From the IMG/VR virus record IMGVR_UViG_3300036852_000741, positions 1 through 64,000 of that record: a DNA stretch of 64,000 nucleotides; one strand, 5' to 3'. Below, piece after piece: positions 3,447-36,422 of this stretch. Source of the stretch: a virus. A program made the position numbers and the translations under genes. Numbering within the stretch: the first letter of the stretch is position 1; each line of letters begins with the position of its first letter. Under the pieces are notes generated by a model. That model worked only from the letters and a program-made list of their open reading frames with translations, was not told the DNA's origin and did not search any database.

Positions 3447-4595
3447 CTACGCCGCAGCGTCTGCCCACGGTCCCCATGCGGCTTCTAGCTGCTTGAGCGG
3501 AACGCGCGTCGCATCCGTGCTTGCTCTTGGTGCGGGCGCATCCATGGCTTCCAGAAAGCGATCGCACTCGTCGCGCAGGTTGGCCACGCTGGCGCGAACC
3601 CGCTCACGCATCGCGTCTGGCACTTCGGTAGCGATCGGAACTGTCACGCGAAACGAAGTGGCGTACTCGCGCGAGACGATCGCCAGGCGACGGAAGAAGG
3701 CCATCGCGCTCCACGCCTGTGCGTCGCGCTCCTGCACGCGCTTGCGCTCCGCCTGCTCGTTCTCCCAGCGCTCCATCTTCTGCGCCTCCGCGTAGGTCGT
3801 GGACGGCGAGCCCAGCAGTCGCTCGCGGACCGTCGGACTGGCCCGGTCCAGGAACTCCAGGACTTCAGGGAAGCCACCGCCGCCGGGGACCTTGCCGCTG
3901 AGCGCCTTCCGGCCAAGCGCTACCTGCTCGTTCTCGGACAGGCCGGAGCCGGTGAGCGCCGCTCCCACGTTGAGGTCGAGCCTGTGCTCCAGCAGCAGGG
4001 TCTGCACTCCCGGGGCTGCGTTCTTGACGATGCGTACCGAGCGGTCGGCGTGCTGACCGCCGGGTGCCGGGTTGCTCTTGTCGGCGAAGCGCCTGGCCAT
4101 CTTCTTCTTGGTCTCGGGGGGCATGTTGGCTTTGGCGAGTGCGCGGGCGTCCTCGCGCCCGATTTCTCCGTTCTCCGCCATGTCGGCCACCTCGTCGGGC
4201 AGGTTGAGCATCGCCATGAGGCTGGTGATCGTCGCCTCCGTCGTCCCCACGTAGGCGGCGAGTATGGCGTGGCCGACCTTGCCGTCGCTGGACTCGGCGC
4301 GCAGCATCTCGCGCAGGTCGCGCAGCGCCCGCGCCTTGGCCATCGGCGTGAGGTGGGACTTGGCCATCTCGTCCGACAGCCTCAACGCCAACGCCCCCAC
4401 CTCGGTGGCCTGGATGACGTGTGGCGTGACCTCCAGGCCGAGGCGTTCGGCGGCCTGCCGGCGGCCCTCTCCCAGGACGACCTCGCCGCTGGGCAGGGTG
4501 ACGACCGGCTGGGCGAGGCCGAAGCGCCGGATGGACTCGATCAGGTCGGGGGACGGCTCTGGGCGTGGCAGATGCCGTGGGGGCTTGAGGGGCAT
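3447..4595 (-). CDS. ParB/Srx N-terminal domain protein with HTH
   Basis: LIESIRRFGLAQPVV..VLGEGRRQAA ParB box followed by a helical HTH-like region. Confidence 0.7.
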   Translation of the reverse strand: MPLKPPRHLPRPEPSPDLIESIRRFGLAQPVVTLPSGEVVLGEGRRQAAERLGLEVTPHVIQATEVGALALRLSDEMAKSHLTPMAKARALRDLREMLRAESSDGKVGHAILAAYVGTTEATITSLMAMLNLPDEVADMAENGEIGREDARALAKANMPPETKKKMARRFADKSNPAPGGQHADRSVRIVKNAAPGVQTLLLEHRLDLNVGAALTGSGLSENEQVALGRKALSGKVPGGGGFPEVLEFLDRASPTVRERLLGSPSTTYAEAQKMERWENEQAERKRVQERDAQAWSAMAFFRRLAIVSREYATSFRVTVPIATEVPDAMRERVRASVANLRDECDRFLEAMDAPAPRASTDATRVPLKQLEAAWGPWADAAA

Positions 4596-10146: not shown

Positions 10147-11388
10147 TCACGCCGCCCGTTGGAACGTGACGCGCGTCGGGATCAGCACGACCTCGACGCC
10201 GCCCAACTCACCGTTGCGGTTCTTGGCGATGTAGACCTTGCCGGACTCCTCCGGCGTGCCGTCACTGCCCTGCTCGCGGTGGACGAACGTCACGATGTCC
10301 GCGTCGTTCTTGAGCATCCCCGAGCCCCGGATGTCGCCCAGCGTCGGCGCCGGGCGCGTCTGGCCGGACACCCGGTTCTCGTTGAGATGGATGGTCGCGA
10401 TCACCCCGCAGTTGCAGGTCGACTCCTTGCACATCTGGTTGATCGTGCGGCTGATCGCCGCCAGGTCGCGCTCCTCGCGGTGCTCGATGAGGTGCAGGAT
10501 GTCGATGCCCACCACGTCCCAGTGATGCCAGCGGGCGTGGCGCATGATGTCCTCCGCCGTCCAGCCGGCGCAGTCGGTGATCCCGAACGGGATTTTGTTG
10601 GCCGCCTGAGAGGCTAGGTGAAGCTGCCCGCTCGTCAGCCGGCGTCGCCGGATCAGCGACAACGCAACGCCGGAGTGCCGGGCGAGCATCCGGTCGACGC
10701 GCGCCGCCGTGCTCATCTCGTTGATGTAGAGGTGCACCTTGGCGCCCTCCGCTGCAATGCCTTCCAGGGTCTGGTCTAGCAGTGCCGACTTGCCGAAGCT
10801 CGACCAGCCGCCCAGCAGCATCACCTCGCCGCGCCGCAGCCCACCGGCGCACGCCGTGACCAACTCGGCGAACGGCAAGGTGAACGTCTCCTCCTCGCCG
10901 CTGGTCAGCCGCTCCAGCGCCTGGTCGGCCAGCATCTCCGGCGTCAAGGTGCGCTCCGAGTCGTCGCTCTGCGGGGTGAGCAGTGCCTCGGCCTGCGCCA
11001 CCTTCGCCATGTCCTGGCCGTCGGCGGCTTCGACCAGGAGCAGCCCCGCCGTGCGCCGCGTCCGCCAGTGCGCCAGGTCCATCACGTGGCGCGCGTAGTC
11101 GAGCACCGCCGACACCGCCGGGGCGTACGCCGCCATCCTGTCCACGTGGTTGGGCTCCAGGTCGGTGATCGCGCCGACGGTCACCGGCGTGATCGCCTTG
11201 CCCTGCAACGCCAGGTCGAGCATCGCCCGGTACGCCTTCCGGGGGACCTCGATGCCGAAGTGCTCGGGCCGCAGCCCGACGATCGTCTGCAACGGCCGCA
11301 GGTGCGCATCGCTGAGCATCACCGCACCGACGATGCCGTACTCCGCCTCGGCGTCAAACAGCTTGCCCGAGTCGTACAGGCCGCCCAT
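10147..11388 (-). CDS. DnaB-like replicative helicase
   Basis: EAEYGIVG N-domain, GGLRRGE, Walker A GWSSFGKS, EMS, PTLGDIRGSG.LKNDAD, IAKNRNG. Confidence 0.85.
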   Translation of the reverse strand: MGGLYDSGKLFDAEAEYGIVGAVMLSDAHLRPLQTIVGLRPEHFGIEVPRKAYRAMLDLALQGKAITPVTVGAITDLEPNHVDRMAAYAPAVSAVLDYARHVMDLAHWRTRRTAGLLLVEAADGQDMAKVAQAEALLTPQSDDSERTLTPEMLADQALERLTSGEEETFTLPFAELVTACAGGLRRGEVMLLGGWSSFGKSALLDQTLEGIAAEGAKVHLYINEMSTAARVDRMLARHSGVALSLIRRRRLTSGQLHLASQAANKIPFGITDCAGWTAEDIMRHARWHHWDVVGIDILHLIEHREERDLAAISRTINQMCKESTCNCGVIATIHLNENRVSGQTRPAPTLGDIRGSGMLKNDADIVTFVHREQGSDGTPEESGKVYIAKNRNGELGGVEVVLIPTRVTFQRAA

Positions 11389-12359
11389 CACGCCGCGACG
11401 AGGCCGAGGCGACGCAGCCGACTTGCCATCTCCTCTGCCTGCGCACGCCCCTCGGGCGTCGCCATCAGCCGCTGGTACTCCTCCTCGACCTCGCGGCACG
11501 CCTGTGCCTTCTCGGCCTCGATCTTGCGGTGGTACTCCGCCATCTGCGCGTCGCTGCGGCGCCTCTCGGCGTGCTGGTCGATGGCGGCGCTACGGACGCC
11601 GCGGGCCGCATCCCAGCCCTCCTGCTTCTCCATCCATCGCGAGAAGTGCGCCTGCAAGTCGACCTTGCGCCTGAACCGCCCCTCCTCGTTGGAGAGGTAG
11701 CTCGTCAGCCGCCGCGCCACGTAGACGGCATCGACGGCGGGATGTGTCGTGATCGCTCTGGAGACGGAGCGCCGTGACGGTGGTGCCCAGCGCTTCTTGC
11801 GAGCGAGGTCGGCGAGGACCGTGTAGGCCGGGTGGTCGCCACCGAGGTCCATCTCCTCCTGGGTGGGTGCGCACGCCTCGCGCGCGCTACCCCCCGTAAG
11901 GGGGGTTTCTTCTTTCTTTCCTCTCTTACACGCGAGGGACGTGTCTTCCTGGACGACACGTTGTGTCTTCCTGGACGACACGTTGATCGGTCGCTGGGCG
12001 TTGGACGTGTCTTCTGAGACGACACGTTGGGGCTCATCGAGGACGGTGTAGACGTTGCTCTTGCCGTCGCGCTCAACGAGCACCACGCCGGCTTCAACGA
12101 GCGCCTGGAGGTAGCGGACGGTGCAGTCGCGAGACATGCCGCAGCGCTCGGCGAGGGCGCTCTGGAGGCAGGTGAACGGTCCGCGGCCGGCTTCGTTGCG
12201 AAGCTCGGTGAGGGCCTGGTAGAGCCCGAGGCCGACGACGCGCTGGAGCCTCTTGCCGGAAGGCTCCTCGCGGCCGTCGAAGCGCGCGCGGATCGCGGTG
12301 GTGCTGGGGATGGTCTGGTAGGAGAAGGGGGCGGGGATGTGGCGGATCGTGTCCGTCAT
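11388..12359 (-). CDS. phage replication initiator (lambda O-like, wHTH)
   Basis: LAERCGMSRDCTVRYLQAL..SNVY HTH; internal iterons; coupled to the helicase. Confidence 0.75.
   Translation of the reverse strand: MTDTIRHIPAPFSYQTIPSTTAIRARFDGREEPSGKRLQRVVGLGLYQALTELRNEAGRGPFTCLQSALAERCGMSRDCTVRYLQALVEAGVVLVERDGKSNVYTVLDEPQRVVSEDTSNAQRPINVSSRKTQRVVQEDTSLACKRGKKEETPLTGGSAREACAPTQEEMDLGGDHPAYTVLADLARKKRWAPPSRRSVSRAITTHPAVDAVYVARRLTSYLSNEEGRFRRKVDLQAHFSRWMEKQEGWDAARGVRSAAIDQHAERRRSDAQMAEYHRKIEAEKAQACREVEEEYQRLMATPEGRAQAEEMASRLRRLGLVAA
11906..12029. repeat. iterons / probable origin of replication
   Basis: GTGTCTTCCTGGACGACACGTTG at 11941 and 11963, variant at 12007, next to a pyrimidine tract starting at 11906. 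Confidence 0.75.
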
Positions 12360-12640
12360 CGCTGTGACCGGAAGTCGCTGAGGTCGAGAACGACACGTGG
12401 GGCGGGGATTGAGCGGTCGACATGGAGATGGCAACGCTGCTGGGCGTATCGCTGGGCGGCGGCATCGTCCACGGCGCCGTTCTCCCAGCGGAACTCCTGG
12501 CTGTAGGAGACGGCGTTCCGGCAGCGCCTTCCGCTACGCGCCGTGGCGCTGCACTGCGGATGGATCGCCGCGATGCTCGGCGCCGGAATGACGATGGCCG
12601 CGTCGGAGCCCCATGCCGCCGGCCCATCCTGTACGCTCAT
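12356..12640 (-). CDS. small Cys/His zinc-finger-like protein
   Basis: CSATARSGRRC..CHLH; AAGGAGG RBS. Confidence 0.6.
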   Translation of the reverse strand: MSVQDGPAAWGSDAAIVIPAPSIAAIHPQCSATARSGRRCRNAVSYSQEFRWENGAVDDAAAQRYAQQRCHLHVDRSIPAPRVVLDLSDFRSQR

Positions 12641-13275: not shown

Positions 13276-13343
13276 CTCACATCCTGGGTATCGCCTATCC
13301 TGACGTGAGCTACGAGCGCCGATGCGCCACGAGGAGCCGCGCA

Positions 13344-13907
13344 ATGGAAGGCACCCGCACCCCCATCAAGATCGTCGTCTACGGCACGCCGGCCCCCGCG
13401 GGGTCCAAGACGAGCACCGCCGTCTACCGCAAGGACCCGCAGACCGGCAGGGCGGTTCCGGTGATGACCGGGGACGGCCGGGTCATCACCAGGGTGCGCG
13501 ACGCCAACCCGGACGCCGGGTCGTGGAAGGAGTCGGTGGCTCAGCGCGCCCGCGAGCAGTACGACGGGCCGGTGCTCACGGGCGCGGTGCGCCTGGAGGT
13601 GACGTTCTTCACGCCGCGGGGTGCCAACCACTACGGCACGGGGCGCAACGCGGGGCGCCTGAAGGACTCGGCGCCGCTGTTCGTCACCAAGAAGCCCGAC
13701 GCACTCAAGCTCGCCCGCGCGGTCGAGGACGCACTGACGAACGTCGTCTGGGCCGACGACGCGCTGGTCTGGCAGGGCGCGCAGCGCAAGGTGTGGGTGG
13801 AGCGCACGGAGCCCGCCGGCTGCGAGATACTGGTCACGCCCGAGCCCGTGCTCACAGTGGGCGATCAGCGCGGTGCCGGGCAGGGCACCCTCGCGCTCGT
13901 CGCGTAG
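13344..13907 (+). CDS. rusA: RusA-family Holliday junction resolvase
   Basis: PAPAGSK, KPDALKLARAVEDALT..WADD. Confidence 0.85.
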   Translation: MEGTRTPIKIVVYGTPAPAGSKTSTAVYRKDPQTGRAVPVMTGDGRVITRVRDANPDAGSWKESVAQRAREQYDGPVLTGAVRLEVTFFTPRGANHYGTGRNAGRLKDSAPLFVTKKPDALKLARAVEDALTNVVWADDALVWQGAQRKVWVERTEPAGCEILVTPEPVLTVGDQRGAGQGTLALVA

Positions 13908-14036
13908 AGGCTTGCCAAGGGAGAGCCGGGTCGCCGGAGTGCCTGCGGGCTACCGGTGATCCGGCCTGCTCCAATAGCAAGGTGCGGCATGGCCGCGGTG
14001 CGCCTTCGCGCAATCGCGTTGCGGATCGCTTTAGGG

Positions 14037-14057
14037 GTGCGCACATCGTGTTAGGCT
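14037..14057 (+). promoter_or_regulatory. variant operator/extended -10 promoter of the RAMP-like gene
   Basis: GTGCGCACATCGTGTTAGGCT (TGn-TAGGCT). Confidence 0.55.
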
Positions 14058-14132
14058 GCCGCCTCCTGGCTGGGCGTGGCATGGCAGCCACGACCTCGGG
14101 CTATCACACACAGCGACCAGGAGGGTCGAACA

Positions 14133-14774
14133 TTGAGCACTGTGGCCGAGCGCAAGCGGGTCATCCCCGCCGCGTACCGTGAAGGCACCATCCGAATCGA
14201 GGGGACCGCTCCGCTGCTGATGCACCGGGACACGCTCCTTGACTTGGCGCATCCGATCACCCGCGAGTTTAAGCTGCTCGCCGGCAAGAGCAGTAAGGAC
14301 CGCACGCCGGACGACGAGATGAACCTGGCCAAGCTGGAATGGCTGGCGGGCATCTACCACGACGAGGACCTTGGGCCGTTCATCCCGGGCGTCAACGTCA
14401 AGACGGCGCTGGCGGAGGCCGCCACGCGCTGGAAGAAGGGCGCCACCATCCGGCGCTCCCTCATCGTCCTGGAGCACAAGCTGGCGCTGGAGTTCAGCGG
14501 GCCACGCGACCTGGAGACGCTTTGGGAGGAGGGCTACCGCGACGTGCGCGGCGCCGTCAACTCGGGCTACGGGCGCGGCCGGGTGTCGCGCTGCCGGCCA
14601 TGCTTCCCGGACTGGGCGCTGACCGCCGAGGCCGCCTACGACCCGGCGGAGGTCGGCGAGGACACCGTGGTCGCCGCGCTGGAGGTGGCGCAGATGCGCG
14701 GCCTGGGCGACTTTCGCCCGGAGTTCGGCACGTTCGTAGCGACGTGGACGCCGAAGACGAACGGTACGAAGTGA
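14133..14774 (+). CDS. stand-alone Cas7/RAMP-like protein
   Basis: TIRIEGTAPLLMH, PFIPGVNVKTAL and C-terminal G-rich loop GLGDFRPEFGTF mirror RAMP hallmarks; AGGAGG 8 nt before TTG. Confidence 0.65.
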   Translation: MSTVAERKRVIPAAYREGTIRIEGTAPLLMHRDTLLDLAHPITREFKLLAGKSSKDRTPDDEMNLAKLEWLAGIYHDEDLGPFIPGVNVKTALAEAATRWKKGATIRRSLIVLEHKLALEFSGPRDLETLWEEGYRDVRGAVNSGYGRGRVSRCRPCFPDWALTAEAAYDPAEVGEDTVVAALEVAQMRGLGDFRPEFGTFVATWTPKTNGTK

Positions 14775-14944
14775 TGAGCGCCTACCAGAAGCTCGTCCAG
14801 GCGCGGGACGCCGTGTTCCATGCGATGGGCTGGGTGCCCCGGCAGTTCGACGTGCCCGAGACTGAGGGCTCGATCGAGCGGCTGAACGCAGAGCTACACG
14901 CTCGGAGCCACGCTGCGCTGCGGCGGAGGATCAAGGGCGAGTAG
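14774..14944 (+). CDS. 56-aa protein coupled to the RAMP-like gene
   Basis: TGATG overlap; MSAYQKLVQARDAVFH.. Confidence 0.55.
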   Translation: MSAYQKLVQARDAVFHAMGWVPRQFDVPETEGSIERLNAELHARSHAALRRRIKGE

Positions 14945-14949
14945 GACGA

Positions 14950-15269
14950 GGCCCGGCAAGGCGGGGCTTGGCAACGCGGGGCCTGTCGTGGCAAGGCGTG
15001 GCATGGGCGGGGCATGGGCCAGGTACGGCGTGGCGAGGGATGGCCGCGGCGAGGCTCGGCAAGGCCCGGCCCGGCGTGGCACGGTTCGGTGCGGCTGGGC
15101 GCGGCCTGCCATGGCAAGGCAGGGCGAGGCATTGCGCAGCGTGGCCAGGAGCGGCATGGCCGGGCTGGGCGTGGCGCGGCACGGCGCGGCGAGGTCTGGC
15201 GAGGCGCGGAGGGCATGGCTAGGCCAGGCGCGGCGAGGCTGGGCGCGGCCCGGTGGGTTCGGTGCGGTC
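14950..15269 (+). ncRNA. GGY-NN pentamer array, candidate guide RNA
   Basis: About 60 tandem 5-mers with fixed GGC/GGT and variable NN; no credible ORF. Confidence 0.65.
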
Positions 15270-15294
15270 GGTGGTCACGCTGCCGATCGCACCG

Positions 15295-15558
15295 TCAGAC
15301 CATCTGGCGCACGAGCTTGCGGCCTTCGCGTGAGGCGGTCAGTGCGGTCTGGTGGTCGGCCCCGCGGGCTCGCTCGCTGTGATAAATGGCGGTCTCAAGC
15401 TCCGCAACAAGCACCCAGACGATCGCCTGACGATCGAGTTGGGTCATGCGCTCTGCCATCGTGATCGCAACTAGCAGAGCATCAACCCGGCGGGCGGAGC
15501 GCTCGGCGAGGTGCTTCCAGCGGCGCCGGACTTCGGCGCGGACCTGGGCGGCGGTCAC
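15295..15558 (-). CDS. hypothetical protein
   Basis: GTG overlapping the upstream stop. Confidence 0.45.
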   Translation of the reverse strand: MTAAQVRAEVRRRWKHLAERSARRVDALLVAITMAERMTQLDRQAIVWVLVAELETAIYHSERARGADHQTALTASREGRKLVRQMV

Positions 15559-15812
15559 TAGTCCAGCCACCCGAAGCTGGCGACCTTGGCGTAGGACCCC
15601 GGTGCCGAGAGGTCGTCGCGGGTGACCGTGGCGTACGCGCAGTGCCCGTTGGTCAGGGCCTTGAGCGCGTCGGCGTTGTCGCCGTCGAGCGCGACGACGA
15701 GCTTGTCGTCGTCGGCGGTGGTGTAGACGACGGTGGCGCGCGCCCGCAGCGCGATGCCGGAGCCGTCGTAGGCGTAGGTGACGAGCACCTTGTTGCCGGT
15801 GGTCACGTCCAT
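15558..15812 (-). CDS. hypothetical protein
   Basis: CCCGACCAAGGAG RBS at 15819-15831. Confidence 0.65.
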   Translation of the reverse strand: MDVTTGNKVLVTYAYDGSGIALRARATVVYTTADDDKLVVALDGDNADALKALTNGHCAYATVTRDDLSAPGSYAKVASFGWLD

Positions 15813-16075
15813 CGTGGTCTCCTTGGTCGGGAACTCTCGCTTCCGGGTGGGACCCGCGGAGACAGCGAACGCGGCGGCTGGCCATCCCGGGCGGTACCAG
15901 CCCGGGTGGGCTTCACGCCACTCCAGCCTTCTTTCGACCCGGGGTGCCACCCCCGGACCGCCGCGCTGCTCGCCCTGGCGGGGCGACGGGCGCGGGACGC
16001 CCTGGCTCGTCGCTGCCTTCGTGGGCCTCACCCGGCCCTCCGGCGGCCGGAGCCTTTCCGACCGCACCCACATGG

Positions 16076-35927: not shown

Positions 35928-36422
35928 ATGCAGTTCAAGCAGATCATGGTGCTGGCCGCAGTAGCCAGCATCGCCGGGACCGGCACGGCTGTTGCCGGCT
36001 CGGCCTACGTCACGGGGCGCGACATCAAGAACGGCACCGTGACGGGCAGGGACATCAAGGATCGCTCACTCAGCCCGCGCGATTTCAACGGTTCCGTCCA
36101 GGGACCGCAGGGAGCCCAGGGAGTCCAGGGAGCCCAGGGAGCCCAGGGACCGGCGGGGGCCGCAGGTTCCCAGGGTCCGGCGGGCAGCTTCTCGGACATC
36201 CAGCGCATCACGCAGACGCAGAGCGTGGCGCCCGGCCAGGCGGTCACCATCGTCGCCCAGTGCTCCGCCGGATACAAGGTCGTTGGCGGCGGCTTCTACA
36301 GCGCCAACATCACCTTCGCCAGCGACTCGTTTGGCACCACGACGGCGTGGAAGGTGATCGCTGGCAACCCGAGCAGCACCACCAGCTACGACGCGACCGC
36401 TATCGCGTACTGCGTCCGATGA
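35928..36422 (+). CDS. secreted collagen-repeat protein
   Basis: Signal peptide, VTGRDIK twice, G-x-Q repeats, C..GYKVVGGG..AYC. Confidence 0.7.
   Translation: MQFKQIMVLAAVASIAGTGTAVAGSAYVTGRDIKNGTVTGRDIKDRSLSPRDFNGSVQGPQGAQGVQGAQGAQGPAGAAGSQGPAGSFSDIQRITQTQSVAPGQAVTIVAQCSAGYKVVGGGFYSANITFASDSFGTTTAWKVIAGNPSSTTSYDATAIAYCVR

What the first reader, a model, noticed from the sequence alone, without database searches (positions are those of the whole stretch)
14037..15269. Phage Cas7/RAMP-like gene plus GGY-NN pentamer array: candidate CRISPR-independent RNA-guided system
Seen: a promoter (14037-14057), a 213-aa ORF (14133-14774), a coupled 56-aa ORF, then from 14950 about 60 tandem 5-mers (GGC cc GGC aa GGC gg GGC tt ..). 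The first three bases are nearly invariant GGY while the last two vary freely. In 15048-15207, 32 units stay in phase and 28 begin with GGY. Microsatellite slippage would homogenise NN, and a 5-nt period does not fit codons, so NN may carry information. Known: RAMP/Cas7 proteins (Csm3/Cmr-type) have an N-terminal strand like TPLH, a P.IPGSS.KG motif and a C-terminal G-rich loop, and polymerise along RNA with a fixed period. This ORF has GTAPLLMH, PFIPGVNVKTAL and GLGDFRPEFGTF. No cas1/cas2 or CRISPR repeats are present. Inference: one protomer binds each GGY and presents NN for pairing, giving a gapped guide against host or competing-phage nucleic acid. I recall a recent preprint using the name VIPR for phage RAMP plus GGY/NN loci; I cannot verify that here, so novelty needs checking.
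Basis: partly seen in the sequence, partly recalled or inferred. Interest (0 to 1): 0.95.

Follow-up and report, generated by a model that had tools for sequence, protein, structure and literature searches.

The report
VIPR guide-RNA system in a provirus
This is a real example of the recently published VIPR system, in which a small phage Cas7-like protein coats an RNA made of GGY-NN five-base repeats and uses the NN bases as a gapped guide, so it is a new member of a known kind and not a new discovery.

Summary
Window 14133-14774 (+) encodes a 213-aa protein. A translationally coupled 56-aa ORF follows (14774-14944). Region 14950-15270 holds 63 pentamers, 56 of them GGY-NN. The first three positions are nearly fixed and the NN positions are nearly random.

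The kind is therefore known. This locus is a new member, in a 105-kb, 70 % G+C IMG/VR provirus record.

Local differences are:
- a 56-aa accessory ORF unrelated to vap1;
- a tail-less array cut by one-base phase slips, which looks like the paper's "staggered" arrays;
- one terminal hairpin;
- non-conserved non-target-strand clamp residues;
- a four-unit GGY-NN run in the vipr leader.

No natural target was found. The VIPR type could not be assigned, because the paper's tables were not available.

The parts
14042..14058 (+). Promoter-like element. It has the core CACATCGTGT followed by TAGGCT (TGnTAnnnT, extended -10 type). It is a divergent copy of a motif repeated across this phage.
   Evidence: The generic sigma-70 scan found nothing, so the function is inferred.
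14068..14087 (+). Four perfect in-phase GGY-NN units in the vipr 5' leader. The adjacent CCTCCTGG (14063-14070) is complementary to the Shine-Dalgarno CCAGGAGG (14117-14124). This may be a relic of an upstream vrRNA or a Vipr autoregulation site.
   Evidence: One search finds only 3 such runs elsewhere in the record, counting both strands. folds the leader at -32.3 kcal/mol, z -2.07. The role is speculative.
14133..14774 (+). vipr: a 213-aa minimal RAMP (Cas7-like) protein.
14774..14944 (+). A 56-aa ORF in the position of a vap accessory gene. It is translationally coupled and predicted to form two helices.
   Evidence: It is conserved in metagenome locus L001 (45 % identity, E 5e-15). The model has helices 3-17 and 34-54, pLDDT 77. 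It shows no similarity to vap1-family proteins and has no Pfam, PHROG, PADLOC or NCBIfam hit.
14950..15270 (+). vrRNA array of 63 GGY-NN pentamers in phase blocks: A 14950-15004 (11 units), 15006-15015 (2), B 15017-15046 (6), C1 15048-15132 (17), two degenerate units 15133-15142, C2 15143-15207 (13), D 15212-15256 (9), then 3 units 15256-15270.
   Evidence: The same kind of same-strand array lies next to vipr in all 7 related loci examined.
15260..15294 (+). A 16-bp hairpin whose 5' arm is formed by the last repeat units. It ends one base before the stop codon of the convergent gene (15295). It is a candidate terminator or 3' cap.
   Evidence: region 15240-15330: -51 kcal/mol, z -2.5. There is no U-tract. 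The function is inferred.

Best explanation
The locus is a VIPR (Viral Interference Programmable Repeat) system carried by a 105-kb, 70 % G+C provirus. Steps marked 'shown' rest on tool results here. Steps marked 'inferred' rest on homology to published VIPR systems. Shown: a Vipr homologue, a conserved coupled small ORF and a same-strand GGY-NN array lie in one block behind a phage promoter-like motif. Inferred: vipr, the 56-aa ORF and the array are made as one transcript, since no separate promoter for the array was found. Inferred: Vipr protomers then bind one per pentamer, holding G1 and G2 through H31, R155, D193 and F194, and the pyrimidine through R195 and neighbouring residues. This leaves N4 and N5 free. 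Inferred: the one-base phase slips at 15005, 15016, 15047 and 15208-15211 and the two degenerate units at 15133-15142 break the filament register. That would give about four to five separate ribonucleoproteins of roughly 9-17 units. Inferred: each one reads double-stranded DNA as NN-x-NN-x (one skipped base, usually the codon wobble position) and blocks transcription of a competing phage, prophage or satellite.
Against: Nothing here shows transcription, processing or binding. No natural target was found. Exact NN-x scans of IMG/VR and of GTDB genomes gave zero hits for five guides. Eight-unit seeds extended only to chance level. The array lacks the ~40-nt conserved tail that follows each type II vrRNA, and one in-phase block is 32 units long, against the published 9-16. 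The non-target-strand clamp residues of SUSP1 (K82, K88, R39) align with T, A and S here, although K82A abolishes silencing in SUSP1. The accessory ORF is not vap1-like.
Confidence: 0.88

Rival explanations
1. It is a VIPR relative that engages its target differently from SUSP1. For example, it might bind RNA or single-stranded DNA, or need the 56-aa protein to hold the displaced strand, because the residues that clamp the non-target strand are not conserved.
For: SUSP1 K82, K88 and R39 align with T, A and S in the window protein, and with T, E and P in L001. K82A abolishes and R39A reduces silencing in SUSP1, and the SUSP1 filament can also pair with RNA. The accessory gene differs from vap1.
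Against: Basic residues lie next to the aligned positions (R99, K101, K102; K52, K55, R57), so the clamps may only be shifted. K33/K47, which contacts the target backbone, is conserved. The NN composition suggests gene-coding DNA or its mRNA and cannot separate the two.
Confidence: 0.1
2. It is a decaying or inactive VIPR locus. The array would be eroding through slips and degenerate units and no longer yield working guides.
For: There are four phase slips, seven non-GGY units, very short blocks (2, 3 and 6 units) and no detectable target.
Against: The Vipr ORF is intact with all RNA-contact residues, a strong ribosome-binding site and a coupled conserved downstream ORF. The closest relative, L001, has the same slip-punctuated arrays, and the discovery paper reports staggered arrays and frequent internal degeneracy as normal. 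Runs of 12, 11 and 9 perfect units remain.
Confidence: 0.05
3. The pentamer tract is an ordinary microsatellite, G-quadruplex-prone spacer or terminator region that merely lies beside the gene.
For: Tandem Repeats Finder gives only low scores (36-67). The tract sits between convergent genes, and the RNA is predicted to be highly structured.
Against: Slippage would homogenise whole units, whereas here GGY is fixed and NN is at 1.9-2.0 bits. The same arrangement recurs beside Vipr genes in seven unrelated phages, always on the gene's strand. It is experimentally shown to be the guide RNA in SUSP1 and P. fulva.
Confidence: 0.01

Closest known systems
Type II VIPR of Escherichia phage SUSP1 and the Pseudomonas fulva prophage (bioRxiv 10.64898/2026.04.26.720920 and .720927; PDB 36pp)
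   Same: A homologous ~200-aa Vipr (30 % identity, E 1e-16 to 8e-19) with the same GG-binding residues. GGY-NN pentamer guides lie on the gene's strand. It is a two-gene operon in a phage, with no cas1/cas2 and no self-target.
   Different: In SUSP1 the vrRNAs are discrete, with 11-15 units each, roughly 55-100-nt gaps between runs that hold the conserved 3' tail or pseudoknot, and one vrRNA upstream of vipr. Here about 320 nt of repeats run on with only one-base slips and a single terminal hairpin. The accessory gene here is 56 aa and unrelated to the 146-aa vap1. W178 is F, and K82, K88 and R39 are not conserved.
'Staggered' vrRNA arrays described in fig. S18 of the discovery preprint
   Same: These are contiguous arrays in which one vrRNA ends where the next begins, offset by one nucleotide (legend read). 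The window and L001 show exactly such one-base register shifts.
   Different: The figure, the type it belongs to and its loci could not be seen, because no supplementary files were held. Identity with that architecture is therefore a resemblance and was not tested.
Unannotated Vipr loci of actinobacteriophages: Gordonia phages Trine (gp41/gp40) and MakoManhole (gp78/gp77), Mycobacterium phages LittleE (gp34/gp33) and prophiBWHA-1 (gp43/gp42)
   Same: Among cultured phages these carry some of the nearest Vipr relatives (35-40 % identity). The hosts are high-G+C, and GGC-rich arrays lie next to the gene.
   Different: Their downstream genes belong to the vap1 family (mutually E 1e-5 to 1e-64, and to SUSP1 vap1). 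Their arrays are discrete blocks of 6-15 units.
Class 1 CRISPR backbone subunits Cas7/Csm3/Cmr4 (e.g. PDB 6IFN chain E)
   Different: Sequence identity is 9-15 % only, and no Cas family model is hit. The period is 5 nt, not 6. There are no CRISPR repeats and no cas1, cas2, Cas10 or Cas5/6. The guide information sits inside the repeats, not in spacers.

Membership tests
VIPR system | Protein homologous to an experimentally characterised Vipr | tested here: met
   phmmer against the PDB gives only 36pp_D 'SUSP1 Vipr protein', E 8.2e-19, covering 183 of 213 residues. tblastn to the SUSP1 genome gives E 1e-16.
VIPR system | Residues that hold G1, G2 and Y3 of each repeat (SUSP1 H17, R138, D177, W178, R179) | tested here: met
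   H31, R155, D193, F194 (aromatic in place of W) and R195. D193, R195 and R155 are invariant in 30 homologues, and the H31 column is H in most rows.
VIPR system | At least 4 tandem YNNGG/GGYNN units next to vipr, with a conserved scaffold and hypervariable NN | tested here: met
   63 units, 56 of them GGY, with entropy 0.2-0.8 bits against 1.9-2.0 bits. Relatives carry arrays with different NN.
VIPR system | Discrete vrRNAs of 9-16 repeats, each followed by a conserved structured 3' tail (type II architecture) | tested here: not met
   The blocks have 11, 2, 6, 17(+2)+13, 9 and 3 units, separated by 1-4 nt only. There is no tail between blocks. One hairpin follows the whole array, and no hammerhead or other Rfam family is present. 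This argues against type II specifically, not against VIPR, since other array architectures are published.
VIPR system | Accessory vap gene (vap1-6) in the operon | tested here: inconclusive
   A coupled 56-aa ORF is conserved in L001, but it is not similar to vap1-family proteins of six other loci. Sequences of vap2-6 were not available.
VIPR system | Viral or proviral context without CRISPR adaptation genes or CRISPR repeats | tested here: met
   IMG/VR provirus record, 85 % complete by CheckV. Terminase, portal, DnaB and RecT are present. No Cas1 or Cas2 and no CRISPR-like repeats.
VIPR system | Natural targets that match at least 80 % of NN under the one-base-skip rule, and none in the element itself | tested here: inconclusive
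   There is no self-target: skip-1 is no better than the skip-0, -2 or -3 controls. No target was found in IMG/VR or GTDB by exact scans. The best seeded extension, 22 of 26, is within chance. Searches allowing mismatches over whole collections were not possible.
VIPR system | vrRNAs are expressed, co-purify with Vipr and direct DNA binding or silencing | not testable with these tools
   Needs small-RNA sequencing, pull-down and reporter assays.
CRISPR-Cas class 1 (type III/VII Cas7) | A Cas7 gene within a cas operon, with a CRISPR repeat-spacer array and other effector subunits | tested here: not met
   No Cas family hit in Pfam, PADLOC or NCBIfam. No Cas1 or Cas2. No 25-40-nt repeats. The similarity is in fold only.

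The most novel reading that the evidence does not exclude
The window clade consists of the window, L001 and about 20 metagenome-only proteins at 55-81 % identity, none from NCBI sources. It may be a VIPR type not covered by the seven published ones. Its features would be a 56-aa helical-hairpin accessory protein in place of a Vap, a tail-less guide array embedded in the 3' UTR of the vipr mRNA and divided only by one-base register slips, a single terminal hairpin, shifted non-target-strand clamps, and a four-unit GGY-NN site in the leader through which Vipr could regulate its own translation.
Probability: 0.2. Interest if true: 0.5.

Novelty: new member of a known kind. Interest (0 to 1): 0.35.

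Why it matters
VIPR is a months-old discovery: RNA-guided DNA recognition by a noncontiguous code, proposed to be ancestral to CRISPR. This locus shows that the scan can recover such a system from raw sequence. It adds a high-G+C, metagenome-only lineage. The published census was built from NCBI NR, and every homologue of this clade found here comes from metagenome sources, so the lineage may be missing from that census. Its tail-less, slip-punctuated array and tiny accessory ORF could help show how vrRNA boundaries are set and what the minimal parts of the system are. The basic biology is already described, so the gain is incremental.

Tried and rejected
1. Natural targets. Exact NN-x patterns for blocks A, C1 (two halves), C2 and D in IMG/VR, and for C2 units 3-13 in GTDB genomes, gave 0 hits.
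2. Eight-unit seeds gave 21 and 64 hits. The best full-guide scores were 23 of 34 (C1) and 22 of 26 (C2). The C2 hit lies in frame in a major head gene of five related 57-58 % G+C contigs. Six of the 10 non-seed bases matching is expected by chance among ~55 independent hits, so it was rejected as a target.
3. Self-targeting, and cross-targeting between the window and L001-L007, gave nothing: skip-1 scored the same as the controls.
As a result, neither the host nor co-resident prophages could be examined.
5. A peptide-style tblastn of the guides was considered and dropped, because expected scores would be far below any usable E-value.
6. The type could not be assigned, because the supplementary tables and figures of the preprint are not held.
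7. The small ORF has no family hit, and a word-based homologue search returned only itself. Its two-helix model was too small and too low in confidence (pTM 0.35) to justify a fold search.
8. Rfam found no ribozyme or known RNA in 13500-16000.
9. Coding of the array was rejected. A period of 5 is incompatible with codons, and no ORF across it passes the G+C-at-third-position test used for this genome.

Full report
**What is in the sequence**

One search shows, on the + strand, the following elements:
- a 226-nt gap after a RusA gene (13305-13907; Pfam RusA, E 1.6e-12);
- a 213-aa ORF from TTG 14133 to TGA 14774, with GGAGG 8 nt before the start;
- a 56-aa ORF whose ATG (14774) overlaps that stop codon;
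- a G-rich tract starting at 14950.

Read as pentamers, the tract falls into phase blocks:
- A: 14950-15004 (11 units)
- 15006-15015 (2 units)
- B: 15017-15046 (6 units)
- C1: 15048-15132 (17 units)
- two degenerate units, 15133-15142
- C2: 15143-15207 (13 units)
- D: 15212-15256 (9 units)
- three more units to 15270.

Of the 63 units, 56 start with GGY. Entropy is 0.35, 0.23 and 0.78 bits at the three scaffold positions, against 1.88 and 1.97 bits at the NN positions, and all 16 dinucleotides occur.

The signal is unique in the window. The best 160-nt stretch holds 27 in-phase GGY units, against a mean of 3.5 and a 99th percentile of 7. Tandem Repeats Finder sees the tract only weakly, as expected when two of every five bases vary.

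**The protein is a Vipr**

Pfam, PADLOC and NCBIfam give nothing. PHROGs places it in phrog_4652, of unknown function (E 3e-41).

A sequence search of the PDB returns one chain only, 36pp_D "SUSP1 Vipr protein", at E 8.2e-19 over residues 20-202. tblastn finds the gene in 128 phage records. These include SUSP1 and its relatives (30 % identity) and, closer at 35-40 %, Gordonia phages Trine and MakoManhole, Mycobacterium phages LittleE and prophiBWHA-1, and Pseudomonas phages LESphi2 and Medea1.

The structure preprint names the residues that hold each repeat:
- H17 and D177 for G1;
- R138 and W178 for G2;
- R179 for the pyrimidine;
- K33 for the target backbone.

In my alignment these are H31, D193, R155, F194, R195 and K47. 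D193, R195 and R155 are invariant among 30 homologues, and the H31 column is H in most rows.

A profile search finds 7,180 clusters (at 50 % identity) of this family in metagenomes at E 1e-3 or better, so the family is large.

**The array goes with the gene**

I fetched seven related loci: one soil metagenome contig (L001, 59 % identity) and six phages. Every one has GGY-NN runs next to vipr and on its strand, with NN strings unlike one another.

The SUSP1 locus reproduces the published layout of one upstream and three downstream vrRNAs. This validates my caller, which is in effect the same as the one later published.

**What is known**

Four preprints bear on this:
[quoted passage not shown] - an October 2026 paper on phage-satellite competition;
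- a language-model survey that recovers 99 VIPR-like clusters from metagenomes.

The first two describe the following:
- Vipr plus vrRNAs of 9-16 YNNGG repeats;
- one protomer per repeat;
- NN pairing with double-stranded DNA while every third target base is skipped;
- transcriptional silencing of competing phages and satellites;
- seven types and six vap families;
- array variants that include "staggered" arrays.

The kind of system is therefore already known.

**How this locus probably works**

The record is an IMG/VR provirus of 105,351 bp, 70 % G+C, with an estimated completeness of 85 %. It carries terminase, portal, DnaB and RecT genes.

About 20 genes of this phage are headed by a palindrome-plus-extended-minus-10 motif (30 matches against 0.46 expected). 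The site before vipr (14042-14058) is a divergent copy that keeps the core and a TAnnnT box. I found no second promoter before the array. I therefore infer a single transcript containing vipr, the small ORF and the array, ending at a 16-bp hairpin (15260-15294) that abuts the stop codon of the convergent gene.

By homology, Vipr would coat the repeats. The one-base slips and the two degenerate units would break the five-base register and so delimit four to five guide particles. None of this is shown here.

Two indirect points fit the published code:
- No site in the phage's own genome matches any guide better under skip 1 than under skips 0, 2 or 3.
- The NN composition (N4: G 41 %, A 25 %; N5: C 32 %, T 27 %) matches first and second codon positions of this genome's genes. 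It fits that model better than uniform, genome-dinucleotide or any other frame or strand model, by 8 to 67 log2 units. The same test on L001 was uninformative.

**Where it differs from the characterised systems**

1. There is no tail between guides and no ribozyme. The nearest relative, L001, shows the same run-on, slip-punctuated arrays on both sides of vipr. This looks like the "staggered" arrays of the paper's fig. S18, but I could read only the legend.
2. The downstream gene is a 56-aa, two-helix protein, conserved in L001 (45 % identity; model). In contrast, the downstream genes of the six phage loci are 146-267 aa and mutually homologous to SUSP1 vap1.
3. The SUSP1 residues that clamp the non-target strand (K82, K88, R39) align with T, A and S here. 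Basic neighbours may compensate.
4. The leader holds four perfect GGY-NN units (14068-14087), and such runs occur only three times elsewhere in the record. A CCTCCTGG stretch in the leader can pair with the ribosome-binding site. This may be a relic of an upstream guide or a feedback site.

**Targets**

Exact NN-x scans found nothing. Seeded scans gave only chance-level extensions; the best was 22 of 26, in a major head gene of unrelated 57-58 % G+C contigs. The host is unknown. The target therefore remains open.

**Verdict**

The locus is a new member of a known, very recently described kind of system, with some local peculiarities that deserve a look but do not yet amount to a new variant. 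All homologues of its close clade come from metagenome sources and none from NCBI, so it may be absent from the published NR-based census. I could not check this.

Noticed in passing
window 14058-14135: The vipr leader holds four perfect in-phase GGY-NN units (14068-14087). It also has a CCTCCTGG stretch complementary to the Shine-Dalgarno sequence. This may be a relic of an upstream vrRNA or a Vipr autoregulation site.
   Followed up: partly
window 6412-63320 (about 20 sites, e.g. 16076, 20210, 24613, 30429, 37863, 63304): A phage-wide palindromic motif, GCTCACnnnGTGTGCTA, runs into a TAnnnT box and is usually followed by a hairpin and CCCGACCAAGGAGG. There are 30 matches against 0.46 expected. 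It looks like a shared operator-promoter of non-structural genes.
   Followed up: partly
window 15260-15294: A 16-bp G+C-rich hairpin without a U-tract lies between the array and the convergent gene's stop codon. It may be a bidirectional terminator or a 3' cap for the last guide.
   Followed up: partly
L001 1939-4100 (metagenome contig Ga0066395_10000330): The same gene order as the window (RusA, vipr, small ORF), but with GGY-NN arrays both upstream (2676-2934) and downstream (3828-4071) of vipr, totalling about 94 units.
   Followed up: partly
L002-L005 and L007 (phages Trine, LittleE, prophiBWHA-1, MakoManhole, LESphi2): Cultured actinophages and a Pseudomonas aeruginosa phage carry unannotated VIPR loci. 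The Vipr and vap1-like genes are labelled 'hypothetical protein' (in one case 'DNA binding protein') and sit next to GGY-NN arrays.
   Followed up: partly
L084 2422-2460 (also L036, L041, L067, L070): This is the best seeded match to guide C2 (22 of 26 NN bases). It lies in frame, with the skipped base at the wobble position, in a major head protein gene of 57-58 % G+C IMG/VR contigs. It is statistically indistinguishable from chance.
   Followed up: yes
window 11941-11985 and 36096-36149: A perfect 22-nt tandem duplication lies inside or next to the replication-initiator-like gene (11388-12434, - strand). A 9-nt-period repeat (CCAGGGAGC, 5.8 copies) lies near 36.1 kb.
   Followed up: no
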